Below are positions 32,186 through 38,558 of a DNA stretch of 64,000 nucleotides, piece after piece. The notes below the pieces were generated by a model. That model ran no database searches. It had not been told where the DNA came from and worked only from the letters and a program-made list of their open reading frames with translations. The position numbers and the translations under genes are program-made. Positions within the stretch are counted from its first letter, which is position 1. Every line of letters begins with the position of its first letter. Origin of the DNA: the human T2T-CHM13v2.0 reference genome, Homo sapiens; NCBI RefSeq assembly GCF_009914755.1, contig NC_060928.1. One strand, 5' to 3'.

Positions 32186-32375
32186 GTCATTTATTATCGA
32201 CTACAAATACAAATAGACATTTGTTTTCTTATTCTGTTTTATTTCTAGAAATAAAGCTATTATGTGCATTCTTATACATATCTACTGGTACAGATGTGTA
32301 AGAATATTTCTAGGAAAAAAATTGCATATACTGAACTTCACAGGCTAATCCATAATCGTTCTCAAAAGTGTTTGT

Positions 32376-32674
32376 GACCAGGCGTGGTGGCTCACACCTG
32401 TAATCCCAGCACTTTGGGAGGCTGAGGCGGACAGATAACGAGGTCAGGAGATCGAGACCATCCTGGCTAACACGGTGAAACGCCATCTCTACTAAAAATA
32501 CAAGAAAATTAGCTGGGTGTAGTGGTGGGTGCCTGTAGTCCAAGCTACTCAGGAGGCTAAGGCAGGAGAATGGTGTGACCAGGGAGGTGGAGCCTGCAGT
32601 GAGCCGAGATCACGCCACTGCACTCCAGCCTGGGCGACAGAGCGAGACTCCATTTCAAAAATAAATAAATAAAT
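32376..32674 (+). mobile_element. AluY (in arm A only)
   Basis: gagatcgagaccatcctggctaacacgg. TSD aaaagtgtttgt (32364-32375 / 32675-32686). Empty site in arm B at ~38386-38397. Confidence 0.93.
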
Positions 32675-33876
32675 AAAAGTGTTTGTTTCCATTTATATTC
32701 CACTGAGAGTATTGTTCTAGCCATTATTAATGCTTGGTGTTTCTCCAAGTTACTAGCTTTGGGTGCTTATATGTTTTGTTTTTCAATCTGGTAAGTATGA
32801 AATGGTATTCAATTGCGTATTTACTTTCTACTTTTCATACTAATAAAGATGCTGAAATTTCATAAAATCTTTATCAACTAGTTTTATTTTTTCTTCTGTG
32901 AAATATTTGAACATGATTTTACCCCAGTATTTTGTTGCAGTGCTTGTGTCTCTTGCTAATAGATAGACAATCTTTACACATTCTGAACACTAAAACATTT
33001 CTGGCTGTATGGGAAGCAAATGTTTCCTGCCAGTTTTTCCCTTTCTGTTTATCCCTTATGTTGTTATTTTTAGTTGTATAAAGATGTTCTTCATTTAAAT
33101 GCAGTCAAATTTATCAGCATTTATTTTTATGATTTGAATATTATGTTTTCTTAAGATGTTTTTAGAAATATTTTAGGTTCAGAGTAAAAGGGCAAGGTAT
33201 AGAGATTTCCCCTATACCCTTTAGCTTGTCATTAGTGACATGCCCCACTAGAGTGGTACATTCTTACAATTATGAGCCTATACTAACACATCATAATTAC
33301 CCAAAGCCCATAGTTTACATTAGGATTCACTCTTGATGTTATACATTCTATGAGTTTGGACATATGTAAAATGCCCATTTTACATTAGCATAATGTAAAA
33401 TCCAACATTTACTACCAAACAGAGCACTTTCACTGCCCTATAAATCCTCTGTGCTCTGCTTATTCAGCATTCTCTCCTCCCTAACCCCTTGGAACGACTG
33501 ATCTTTTTCCTCTCTCCATGGTTTTGGCTTTATCGTAATGCCATGCAGTGGGAATCATACAGCATGTAGTCTTTTCAGATTGGCTTCTCTTGATAATATG
33601 GATTTATGATTCCTCCATGACTTTTTGTGGTTTGATGTCTTCATTTTAGTGCTGAAGAGTGTTTTATTTTTTGATGCACCACATTTTGTTTATTCATTCA
33701 CCTATGGAAGGAATTTTAGTTGCTTCCAAGCTTTGATAATTATAAATAAAGATTATATAAACATCTGTGTGTGGATCTTTGTGTGAACATAACTTTTTAA
33801 CTTCTTTAGGTAAAAACCAAGCAGTGTGATTGCTGGATTATATTGTCAGAGTATGTTTACTTTTATAAGAAATTGG

Positions 33877-34427: not shown

Positions 34428-34732
34428 GCCTGTAATCTCAGCCCTTTGGGAAGCCAAGGCAGGCCGATCACAAGGTCAAGAGTTTGAGAACAGCAGGGCC
34501 AATATGGTGAAACCCCATCTGTACTAAAAATACCAAAAGAAATTAGCTGGACGTGGCAGTGCACACCTGTAGTCCCAGCTCCTCGGGAGGCTGAGGCAAA
34601 AGAATCGCTTGAACCCGGGAGGTGGAGGTTGCAGTAAACCGAGATCATGCCATCGCACTCCAGCCTGGGTGACAGAGTGAGACTGCCTCTCAAAAAAAAA
34701 AAAAAAAAGAAAGAAAGAAAGAAAGAAAAAGA
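34428..34732 (+). mobile_element. AluS (Sg-like), missing the first ~20 nt, carrying only the right TSD
   Basis: Starts gcctgtaatctcagc. A/GAAA tail followed by aaacacctgaagc (34733-34745). Confidence 0.88.
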
Positions 34733-37054
34733 AAACACCTGAAGCTGGTAATCAGCTTCCTGATAAGATCTCAGGAGTTGAACAAGCAGGTTCAAGCATG
34801 CACACTAAGAGGCACAATGGCAGAGTGTAACTGGTATATAACCTTCCTCTAGGAATGCTCAATTGGTAAGAGAAAAAATAATGCCTCAAATGAGCATGTG
34901 CACAACTTCAGTAAATACACTGGGCATGCAGCCTTTTCCAAGTGCTGCCAGGCCACTATGCATGCAGATAGCCTGCTCCAAGAGAAGAATCAGGGGGAAA
35001 GAAATGCAAACCCTGCAACAGTGCCAATGTTTAAAACCCCAAGTCAAGGTTTGGATGGGGCATTTGGATTTGTCAAGTTACCCACTTGGCCTTGTTCCAA
35101 GTGTACTTTGCTTCCTATTGTTCCTGCTTTAAAATATTTTAATAAATTTTCACTTCTGCTCTAAACTTCACCTCGGTTTCTTACTCTGCCTTCTACGTCG
35201 CAACTGAATTCTTTTGTCTGAGGAGGCAAGAATCGAGTTTGCGCAGACCCATTTGATTCGCTGCTGCTAAAAAACCATTTCAAATGTAACGACACTTATA
35301 CATTAAAACTAAACGGATGGAGAAACATATACCATAATAATACTAATGAAAAGGAAAGAAGAGTAGCTATATTAATTTCAGACAGAGCATAGTTTACAGC
35401 AAAATACATATATATATATATCACAGATTAAAGAAGGGCATTAAGTAATGATAAAAGAGTCAATTCTCCCAGAAGATATAATAATCCTTATTATGTATGT
35501 GTGTAAAAACAGAACATTAAACTGATAAAACTTCAAAGAGAAATAGATAAATACCCTATCATATTCAACACCCCACTATCAGAAATGAACAAAATTAGCA
35601 GGCAGAAAATCAGAACGGACATAGCTAAATTCAACCTGCCATCATGCAACTGGATATAATTGACATCAATTGACTACTTCATTGGACAATATAATACATA
35701 TTCTTCTCAAGCTCACAAAGAATGTTCACCAATGTATTCCACATTCTGGACCATAAAACAAACCTTAACAAATTTAAAAGATAGAAATCATTCAATGTCT
35801 GCTCTAAGACCGTAATGGAATTAAACTAGAAATCAGTGTTAGAAGGATAACAGAAAAATCACCAAATATGCAGCAATTAAGCAACACACTTTTTAATAAC
35901 ACAAGCCAAAGAAGAAGAAATCTCAAAGGAAATATAAAAAAAATTTGAACTAAATAAAAATAAAAACATAACATCAAGATTTGGGGGATGCAGCAAAAGA
36001 CAATTCTTAAAGGAAAATTTATAGCATTGAATAAATATATTAGAAAATAAGAAAAATAAGTTTCCTCTGAGAAAACTAGAAGAAAAAAATTAATTTCAAA
36101 GTAAGCAGAATAAATAGAATTAGGGCAGAAGTCAATAAAGTTGAAAATAAATCAGTAGAGAAAAATCAATAAAAGTAAAAACTGCTTATTTGAAAAGACC
36201 AATAGAATTGAAAAACTGTAATTGAAGCTAGTTAAAAAAAAGAGAGGACATAAATTACTATTACTGGAAACCAAGAGAAGACATCACTACAGATTCTATG
36301 GACTTTAAAAGGAAAGTCAAAGAATACCATGAATATTTCTATGTCCACCAACATGAAAACCAAGATAAAATTGATCAATTTCTTGAAAGACACAATTTGC
36401 CAGATCTCGCACAAGAAAATTTCAGAAGCTCTAAATCAATTAATGAAGTTGAATAGAGCCCAGAAATAGACCCACGGAAATATAGTCAATTGATCTTTGG
36501 CAGTGGGGCAAATGCAATTCAACAGAAAAAGGACAGGTTATTTCATTTTGTTTTTTGTTTTTTTTTTTCCCTCAACAAATGGTCTGCAAAAAGAAGATAT
36601 CCACATGGGAAAAAAGAATCTAGAAACAGATCTTAAACTTTCAAAAAATTAACTTAAATGGGTCATATATTTAAATGTAAAACAAAAAACTACAAATTTC
36701 CTAGAATATAGTAGAAAATTTAGATAATCTTCCCTGGGTTTAGTGATGACAATTGAGATATAATATCAAGAACATAATCTATTAAAGAAAAAGTTAATAG
36801 GTTGGATTTCATTAAAGTTAAAAATATATCCAGTGAAAGATACTGTTAGGAGAATAAAAAATAATAGAATGGGAGGAAATACTTGCACAAGACACATGTA
36901 ATAAAGGCTTTTTAAAATTATATAAGGGACTCTTGAAACTCACCAATAAGAAATCAAATAATCTATTTTTTTAAAATGGACCAAAGACCTTAACAGACAA
37001 CTAAGGATACACAGATGACAAATAAGCATATGAAAAGATGTCTCACATTATATA

Positions 37055-38558
37055 TCATCAGGAAAATGCAAATTAACCTAATTGGATACGACTACATCCC
37101 TATTAGAATGGCCAAAAGCTGAAAAATTAATAACACCAAATGCTGACAAGGATGTGAAGAAATTCTCATTCATTGCTGGAGGAAATTCAAAATGATATAG
37201 CCCCTTTGGAAGACTCTTTGTCAATTTCTTACAAAATTAAACATACTCTGGCAATATGATCCAGCAATCACACTGCTTGATTTTTACCTAAAGAAGTTAA
37301 AAAGTTATGTCCACACAAACATCCACACATAGATGTTTATGTAATCTTTATTTATAATTATCAAAGCTTGGAAGCAACTAAAATTCCTTCCATAGGTGAA
37401 TGAATAAACAAAATGTGGTGCATCAAAAAATAAAACATTATTCAGCACTAAAATGAAGATATCAAACCACAAAGTCATGGAGGAATCATAAATCCATATT
37501 ATCAAGAGAAGCCAATCTGAAAAGACTACATGCTGTATTATTCCCACTGCATGGCATTACGATAAAGCCAAAACCATGGAGAGAGGGAAAAGATCAGTCG
37601 TTCCAAGGGGTTACGGAGGAGAGAATGCTGAATAGGCAGAGCACAGAGGATTTATAGGGCAGTGAAAGTGCTCTGTTTGGTAGTATAATGTTGGATTTTA
37701 CATTATGCTAATGTCCAAACTCATAGAATGTACAACATCAAGAGTGAATCCTAATGTAAACTATGGGCTTTGGGTAAATATGATGTGTTAGTATAGGCTC
37801 ATAATTGTAAGAATGTACCACTCTAGTGGGGCACATTGATAATGACAAACTAAAGGGTATAGGGGAAATCTCTATACCTTGCCCTTTTACTCTGAACCTA
37901 AAACTTCTCTAAAAACATCTTCAGAAAACATAATGTTCAAATCATAAAAATAAATGCTGATAAATTTGACTGCATCAAATGAAGAACATCTTTATACAAC
38001 TAAAAATAACAACATAAGGGATAAACAGAAAGGGAAAAACTGGCAGGAAACATTTGCTTCCCATACAGCCAGAAATGTTTTAGTGTTCAGAATGTGTAAA
38101 GATTGTCTATCTATTAGTAAGAGACACAAGCACTGCAACAAAATACTGGGGTAAAATCATGTTCAAATATTTCACAGAAGAAAAAATAAAACTAGTTGAT
38201 AAAGATTTTATGAAATTTCAGCATCTTTATTAGTATGAAAAGTAGAAAGTAAATACGCAATTGAATACCATTTCATACTTACCAGATTGAAAAACAAAAC
38301 ATATAAGCACCCAAAGCTAGTAACTTGGAGAAACACCAAGCATTAATAATGGCTAGAACAATACTCTCAGTGGAATATAAATGGAAACAAACACTTTAGA
38401 CAATAATTATGGATTACCCTGTGAAGTTCAATATATGCAATTTCATTCCTAGAAATATTCTTACACATCTGTACCAGTAGAAACGGATAAGAATGCACAA
38501 AATAGTTTTATTTCTAGAAATAAAACACCAGAAAAGATGAAATGTCTATTGGTATTTG
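37055..38558 (+). repeat. Inverted-repeat arm B (donor; L1MC1 3' end plus L1ME junction)
   Basis: Continuous with flanking L1 sequence on both sides, so it is the original. Its reverse complement matches 32204-34335 once the two AluYs are removed. Confidence 0.95.

What the first reader, a model, noticed from the sequence alone, without database searches (positions are those of the whole stretch)
32204..38558. 1.5-kb inverted repeat with a near-perfect core: gene conversion and a candidate recurrent inversion
Seen: arms 32204-34335 and 37055-38558 are inverted around a ~2.7-kb spacer. Identity is uneven by hand count: about 88% at 32204-32375, 1 mismatch in ~415 bp at 32677-33093 vs 37981-38397, about 96% at 33094-33876, and about 91% at 34160-34335. 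The sequence is decayed L1MC/L1ME with no evident selective reason for such identity. Established knowledge: closely spaced, highly identical inverted repeats are homogenised by gene conversion and mediate NAHR inversions in humans. Inference: this site converts repeatedly and may invert the ~5 kb between the cores. Short reads would largely miss such an inversion.
Basis: partly seen in the sequence, partly recalled or inferred. Interest (0 to 1): 0.75.

Follow-up and report, generated by a model that had tools for sequence, protein, structure and literature searches.

The report
Old inverted copy with homogenised core
A 1.5-kb piece of dead jumping-gene DNA on human chromosome 4 sits next to a back-to-front copy of itself and a 421-base part of the two is almost identical, likely because one copy overwrote the other long after the duplication; this is a known process in a gene-free spot, and no flipping of the DNA between the copies was found in the inversion lists that could be checked.

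Summary
The inverted repeat is real and as described: arms 32204-34335 and 37055-38558, 67 mismatches in 1503 columns, core 1 in 421. No third close copy was found. Arm A is the derived copy. It lies in a 4-kb composite insertion, bracketed by a 13-bp duplication, that splits an LTR-like repeat and also holds two short pieces copied from nearby; template switching is the inferred origin. Two Alus and a solo-LTR-like element inserted afterwards and are themselves well diverged, so the core cannot owe its identity to a young duplication. Divergence is 10.5% outside the two Alus, 4.0% in the middle, 0.24% in the core. Arm-to-arm gene conversion is the best explanation (about 0.85), probably more than once. 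Recurrent inversion is unsupported: the spacer is collinear with the older elements it interrupts, the site is absent from two inversion tables, and only 6 of 319 comparable untested repeat pairs proved polymorphic. No ape or second human sequence was available. A new member of a known kind; no gene or function.

The parts
32204..34335 (-). Arm A: derived, inverted copy of 37055-38558, interrupted by two later Alus and a 22-bp insert
   Evidence: both ends are novel junctions
37055..38558 (+). Arm B: parental copy; decayed L1 ORF2 3' part and flanking old repeat DNA, continuous with the spacer L1
   Evidence: (relatives L003-L007 run across 37055 without a break)
32676..33096 (-). Near-identical core in arm A (1 mismatch in 421), starting at the right target-site copy of Alu 1
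37977..38397 (+). Near-identical core in arm B
32376..32674 (+). Alu 1 in arm A (AluY-like, name recalled); exact 12-bp target-site duplication 32364-32375 / 32675-32686; empty site in arm B
   Evidence: 9-10/232 non-CpG and 16/48 CpG differences from the relatives' majority
33876..34160 (+). Alu 2 in arm A (AluY-like, name recalled); 10-bp target-site duplication with one mismatch 33867-33876 / 34160-34169; empty site in arm B
   Evidence: 4/230 non-CpG and 16/43 CpG differences
33360..33385 (.). 22-bp insert present only in arm A that forms a hairpin (quasi-palindrome); likely a short fold-back copying event
   Evidence: z -3.1, 0 of 200 shuffles as stable; region chosen after seeing it
34336..34417 (+). 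Piece D': direct copy (75/82) of 39278-39360, joined without microhomology to the inner end of arm A
39278..39360 (+). Donor of piece D', itself followed by an Alu at 39369
31020..31093 (-). Piece X (continues 32192-32198 beyond the inner LTR-like element): inverted copy of a repeat fragment at about 57930-58006
   Evidence: top non-self genome match; shares 9 of 13 non-majority states with X, the next relatives 3
57930..58006 (+). Likely donor of piece X, 26 kb to the right (DNA-transposon-like repeat, Tigger3-like by recall)
31094..32185 (+). Solo-LTR-like element (MER11-like by recall) inserted inside piece X, 6-bp target-site duplication 31088-31093 / 32186-32191
   Evidence: (dispersed copies 85-91% identical, same ends)
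30702..31019 (+). Left Alu of the composite insertion, with a tail that runs into its own reverse complement
34419..34732 (+). T-run plus 5'-truncated right Alu with A-rich tail
30689..30701 (+). Left copy of the exact 13-bp duplication bracketing the composite insertion
   Evidence: occurs twice in the window
34733..34745 (+). Right copy of the 13-bp duplication
30580..30701 (+). Left part of a split LTR-like repeat (MER41-like by recall)
   Evidence: adjoins the right part, same orientation, in 4 of 5 relatives examined
34730..35273 (+). Right part of the split LTR-like repeat, inside the spacer
35274..37054 (+). Decayed L1 ORF2 body forming most of the spacer

Best explanation
This is a local inverted duplication of decayed L1 DNA, likely made long ago by one multi-jump template-switching event, whose two arms have since likely been homogenised in patches by gene conversion, most recently over the 421-bp core. 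Shown: arm A sits in a 4-kb insertion made of pieces that match sequence 3-26 kb to the right; three mobile elements inserted into it later; identity is highest between the two Alus. Inferred: a stalled fork or break at an Alu tail copied X (minus), B (minus) and D (plus), then rejoined at an Alu; afterwards breaks in one arm were repaired from the other, and the ~300-bp Alu insertions cut off the 160- and 174-bp end segments, which stopped converting. The tracts likely resolved without crossover, so the spacer stayed in its old orientation. No function is implied.
For: Both Alus have target-site duplications in A and empty sites in B, so they post-date the duplication. They differ from their relatives' majority at 4/230 and 9-10/232 non-CpG and 16/43 and 16/48 CpG positions; twice the smallest figure predicts 14.6 mismatches in 421 bp, observed 1 (P 7e-6). 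The LTR-like element inside piece X is at most 91% identical to any copy scored. Outside the Alus 35/334 mismatches, between them 31/1168 (Fisher p 2e-8); the best BIC segmentation puts a boundary at the Alu 1 edge. Other pieces of the same insertion are old: D' 75/82, X 85% to its donor. Derived bases fall evenly on the arms (14 A, 16 B, 13 unclear, of 43). Arm-to-arm conversion with rare crossover is documented (PMC3723533 abstract); a short near-identical patch inside a 94% inverted pair is described for HsInv0209 (PMC3961182 passage).
Against: Single genome only: no orthologue tree, no polymorphism data, so direction, number and dates of tracts are unknown. The change at the Alu 2 edge is not sharp (9/113 just inside, 15/174 outside), and the best BIC model has only three segments. 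The flanking Alus at 30702 and 34428 are not shown to be copies of each other or of the Alu at 39369 (18% non-CpG difference; shared-state rank 536 of 1128), so the last jump of the origin model is unproven. Junctions show no clean microhomology. The core's date is loose (0.01-1.3% interval), so it is not shown to be human-specific.
Confidence: 0.85

Rival explanations
1. The core is a live NAHR substrate: the ~5 kb between the cores flips recurrently, and the homogenised patch is the scar of repeated crossovers with their conversion tracts.
For: Inverted repeats this short flank validated polymorphic inversions (rows of Table S1 in PMC13629690 with 140-755 bp repeats). Most NAHR inversions studied recur (PMC6748972 and PMC3961182 passages). 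A 279-bp perfect run exists.
Against: Not among the 10 chr4 rows of the T2T table of PMC10150506 nor among the 612 candidates of PMC13629690, which merged five long-read, Strand-seq or optical-map studies of 195 people. 6 of 319 inverted pairs without a prior call were polymorphic in 54 people. The two halves of the split LTR-like repeat are in one orientation, so CHM13 shows no net inversion.
Confidence: 0.12
2. The core was overwritten once by a replicative template switch (a fork copying the opposite arm) rather than by recombinational conversion; the rest of the unevenness is noise or older events.
For: The locus shows other fold-back events: the 22-bp hairpin insert and the Alu tail running into its reverse complement. 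The best BIC model has one young patch.
Against: The middle (30/747) is also more alike than the ends (35/334; p 8e-5), which needs at least one more homogenising event. The outcome is the same non-reciprocal transfer and cannot be told apart from one genome.
Confidence: 0.1
3. The identical core is an assembly or polishing artefact of CHM13.
For: Nothing positive; raw reads and other assemblies were not available.
Against: The whole repeat spans 6.4 kb, shorter than the long reads used for this assembly (recalled); the core keeps one difference; the intermediate 1.8% patch (7/390) is not what a collapse gives.
Confidence: 0.03
4. The duplication is recent, or both cores are held by purifying selection.
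For: Core identity alone.
Against: Three aged insertions post-date the duplication; ends differ by 9-13% with few CpG-type changes. No annotation in the arms (hub note); no Pfam match above cut-off in 12 frames.
Confidence: 0.02

Closest known systems
Inverted repeats under arm-to-arm gene conversion (Y palindrome P6, PMC3723533; X palindromes, PMC8981503 listing)
   Same: Inverted arms more alike than their age allows; conversion as the homogenising force; crossover rare in P6 (3 inversions vs 146 conversion events, abstract).
   Different: Autosomal, 1.5 kb rather than tens of kb, gene-free, only patchily homogenised (0.24-12.5%), and broken by Alu insertions.
Small IR-mediated (NAHR) polymorphic inversions of InvFEST, e.g. 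HsInv0040, HsInv0061, HsInv0072, HsInv0266 (Table S1 rows, PMC13629690)
   Same: Repeat length 0.65-1.9 kb, spacer 1.7-4.6 kb, repeats made of transposon DNA.
   Different: Those are seen in both orientations in people; this site is not in that table, no inverted allele is known to me, and only 421 bp are near-identical.
Complex inverted duplications / templated insertions attributed to FoSTeS-MMBIR (passages in PMC12350158 and PMC6748972)
   Same: Several nearby segments copied in mixed orientation with blunt or short-homology junctions.
   Different: Ancient rather than a present-day variant as far as one genome shows; bracketed by a retroposon-type target-site duplication and two Alus whose relation is unresolved.

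Membership tests
Inverted repeat under gene conversion | Two inverted paralogous arms with no other close donor | tested here: met
Inverted repeat under gene conversion | Arm identity greater than the age of the duplication allows | tested here: met
   Insertion dating vs core
Inverted repeat under gene conversion | Mismatches clustered in tracts | tested here: met
   Permutation and Fisher tests
Inverted repeat under gene conversion | Arms cluster by species in a primate tree, or paralogous variants are shared between arms in the population | not testable with these tools
   No ape or second human sequence held (no relatives)
NAHR-mediated polymorphic inversion | Inverted repeats >90% identical flanking a spacer | tested here: met
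   95.5% over 1503 columns
NAHR-mediated polymorphic inversion | Both orientations observed among haplotypes or species | tested here: inconclusive
   Absent from two tables; three other papers' lists could not be searched properly; no haplotypes available
NAHR-mediated polymorphic inversion | Recurrence (shared haplotypes between orientations) | not testable with these tools
   Needs phased population data
FoSTeS/MMBIR-type complex inverted duplication | Several local templates in mixed orientation joined in one insertion | tested here: met
   X minus, B minus, D plus
FoSTeS/MMBIR-type complex inverted duplication | Microhomology or blunt junctions | tested here: inconclusive
   One blunt junction; one with an 8-bp word shared by the two donors but not cleanly kept; junctions are decayed
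L1-mediated retrocopy or transduction | Target-site duplication and 3' poly(A) around one colinear (or once 5'-inverted, or spliced) transcript copy | tested here: not met
   Duplication and A-tail are present, but the pieces come from 58.0, 38.5-37.0 and 39.3 kb in orientation minus, minus, plus, with no splice dinucleotides at the X-B junction
L1MC / L1ME subfamilies | Best match to those consensus sequences | not testable with these tools
   No repeat library; L1 ORF2 ancestry of the inner part shown

The most novel reading that the evidence does not exclude
An uncatalogued ~5-kb inversion toggles here in humans or apes on a homology of only ~420 bp that conversion itself keeps renewing, and the Alu insertions at the arm ends give a built-in dated record of how heterologies fence conversion tracts in a small autosomal inverted repeat.
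Probability: 0.12. Interest if true: 0.5.

Novelty: new member of a known kind. Interest (0 to 1): 0.3.

Why it matters
If right, it is a compact natural example of conversion in a 1.5-kb autosomal inverted repeat, with internal time marks (two Alus, one LTR-like element) that let tract ages and limits be read from existing primate assemblies. If an inverted allele exists it would add one small inversion to catalogues, in a stretch with no annotated gene (nearest protein-coding gene about 85 kb away, hub note), so a phenotype is unlikely. The processes are established; nothing here changes a general view.

Tried and rejected
Third donor for the core: none found. Recent duplication: rejected by insertion dating. 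Spliced retrocopy origin: rejected on order, orientation and junctions. Flanking Alus as duplicates of each other or of the Alu at 39369: not supported (0 shared rare states among 93 Alu hits, 3 of them repeats of window copies; ranks 536, 685, 355 of 1128 pairs among 48 old Alus of 107); one uncommon state (5 of 107) is shared by all three, too little to use. One-way conversion bias: not seen. Pfam: no family above cut-off for 12 frames in the arms and spacer or for the reference L1 frame; the structure-bank search identified it instead. Literature: 10 searches; none listed a paper on this site; two searches returned nothing. Supplements: PMC12058530 had only an unreadable scan and its inversion list covers >10 kb; PMC12350158 file 2 was cut; PMC1270012 gave no hit but my old-assembly prefixes were recalled. 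These unseen tables may bear on the inversion claim. Earlier scan findings were not available.
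Full report
Observation. Self-BLAST, the repeat finder and an affine alignment agree on an inverted pair at 32204-34335 (arm A) and 37055-38558 (arm B): 1503 columns, 67 mismatches, with 311-, 293- and 22-bp stretches present only in A. Mismatches by segment are 20/160 (32204-32363), 1/421 (32676-33096), 30/747 (33097-33868) and 15/174 (34162-34335). 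Permutation of mismatch positions gives p=5e-5 for so clean a 421-column window, and p=2.5e-4 when only the columns between the two large gaps are shuffled. A search of the whole own genome with arm B returned the two arms and then dispersed relatives at 75% or less (40 of 6879 candidates scored); the core region matched only the two arms. The inner part of the arms is decayed L1 ORF2: a frame elsewhere in the window matches solved L1 ORF2p at E 6e-180 and hits arm B at 41% identity, E 2e-23. The core hits only at E 0.21. Subfamily and family names in this report (AluY, MER11-like, MER41-like, Tigger3-like, L1MC/L1ME) are recalled and come from no call.

Anatomy. Arm B is the parent: relatives L003-L007 run across its inner edge at 37055 into the spacer without a break. 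Arm A has new junctions at both ends. At 34336 it is joined to an 82-bp direct copy of 39278-39360 (75/82). To its left lies piece X (31020-31093 plus 32192-32198), an inverted copy of a repeat fragment at about 57930-58006: that copy is the best of 39 non-self matches, and among 29 relatives aligned it shares 9 of the 13 states where X leaves the majority in the well-aligned middle columns, against 3 for the next best (read; end columns left out as poorly aligned). An Alu lies at each end (30702 and 34428), and an exact 13-bp duplication (30689-30701, 34733-34745) brackets the whole 4 kb. That duplication splits an LTR-like repeat: in 4 of 5 relatives examined the part at 30580-30701 adjoins the part at 34730-35273, in the same orientation. 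So the inverted repeat is one piece of a composite insertion copied from templates 3-26 kb to the right, in the order minus, minus, plus. Template switching during replication or repair is the inferred origin; PMC12350158 and PMC6748972 (passages seen) attribute complex inversions and inverted duplications to such processes. The last step is open: the two flanking Alus are 18% apart at non-CpG sites and share no more uncommon states than random old pairs, so I cannot show that they are copies, or that the right one is a chimera with the Alu at 39369. Junctions show no clean microhomology.

Dating. The two large gaps are Alus with target-site duplications in A and single empty sites in B, so they came after the duplication. 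Against the majority of the 29 closest relatives of Alu 2 they differ at 9-10/232 and 4/230 non-CpG positions and at 16/48 and 16/43 CpG positions, whereas a young Alu in the window differs at 3/48 CpG positions (the reference set was picked for likeness to Alu 2, so 4/230 is a low figure). Twice the smaller figure predicts 14.6 mismatches in the core; one is seen (P 7e-6). A 1.09-kb LTR-like element inserted inside piece X, with a 6-bp duplication, is at most 91% identical to any scored copy. The unconverted pieces differ from their donors by 9-15%. The duplication is therefore old, probably tens of millions of years (inference from recalled primate rates), and the core was made alike much later. 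At a recalled human-chimpanzee divergence of 1.2%, 5.1 mismatches would be expected and P(<=1) is 0.04; since the window was chosen for being clean, this does not show a human-specific event.

Mechanism. Outside the two Alus 35/334 columns differ, between them 31/1168 (p 2e-8); the middle is cleaner than the ends (p 8e-5) and less clean than the core (p 3e-5) (boundaries post hoc). The core starts exactly at the right edge of Alu 1, and the best BIC segmentation puts a boundary there; at Alu 2 the change is gradual (9/113 just inside). Derived bases are split 14 to 16 between the arms, 13 unclear, of 43 tested. The simplest reading is non-reciprocal arm-to-arm transfer on at least two occasions, with the short end segments cut off by the insertions. 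That conversion was recombinational, and that the Alus acted as barriers, are inferences.

Inversion. Repeats of this size can flank real inversions (first part of Table S1 of PMC13629690), and such inversions often recur (PMC3961182 and PMC6748972, passages). But nothing shows one here. The T2T inversion table of PMC10150506 has 10 chr4 rows, none at 164.64 Mb (supplement rows seen). Offsets between paired rows put the site near GRCh38 161.29-161.32 Mb (the pairing of one row is my inference); prefixes 1610-1614 gave 9 places in the supplement of PMC13629690, none a chr4 coordinate, and its 10 chr4 inverted-pair rows do not include it. In that study 6 of 319 inverted pairs without a prior call were polymorphic in 54 people (sections read). 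In Y palindrome P6, 146 conversion events went with 3 inversions (PMC3723533, abstract), so conversion does not imply inversion. The split LTR-like repeat is collinear, so CHM13 has no net inversion relative to the pre-insertion state; an origin with the spacer inverted and a later flip back has the same junctions and cannot be excluded. Lists in PMC12058530 (passages; supplement unreadable; events >10 kb), PMC12350158 (passages; supplement cut) and PMC1270012 (supplement search with recalled prefixes) could not be checked properly; the HPRC2 preprint PMC13419748 (passages) says nothing on the site in the 12 of 15 places shown. A search for FSTL5 with inversion and chr4 listed two unrelated papers.

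Verdict. Real feature; conversion about 0.85; inversion polymorphic or toggling about 0.12; artefact about 0.03. It works like the converting inverted repeats already described and meets the tests of that class that one genome allows; it is not filed as a polymorphic inversion because the defining observation is missing. New member of a known kind, in gene-free repeat DNA. Interest 0.3: the dated internal insertions and the multi-piece origin make it a tidy test case, not a surprise.

Noticed in passing
window 7140-7759 / 44757-45374 and 8187-8979 / 43886-44623: A second, older inverted pair about 36 kb apart (78% and 74% identity), with a further related piece at 45817-46174 (82% to 43886-44237). 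Probably independent copies of one repeat family; not examined.
   Followed up: no
window 34419-34428: A T-run directly in front of a sense, 5'-truncated Alu, at the same position where the donor segment is followed by a different Alu (39369); unexplained.
   Followed up: partly
window 30992-31020: Alu tail of AAT repeats followed at once by its reverse complement, a small fold-back at the start of the templated pieces.
   Followed up: partly
window 28670-28985: A young-looking Alu (3/48 CpG differences) with a short internal insertion near its 3' end; a 98% copy lies in locus L004. Could be a recent or polymorphic insertion.
   Followed up: no
window 58534-59463 (-): A 309-codon stop-free frame matching the C-terminal part of L1 ORF2p, a 5'-truncated younger L1.
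   Followed up: partly
window 31150-31331 and 31840-31892: Internal tandem duplications (93 bp at 86%; 26 bp twice) within the solo-LTR-like element.
   Followed up: no
L013:355 and L013:682: Two adjacent Alus in one fetched locus share 7 rare states, the top pair of 1128, suggesting a local tandem duplication or conversion.
   Followed up: no
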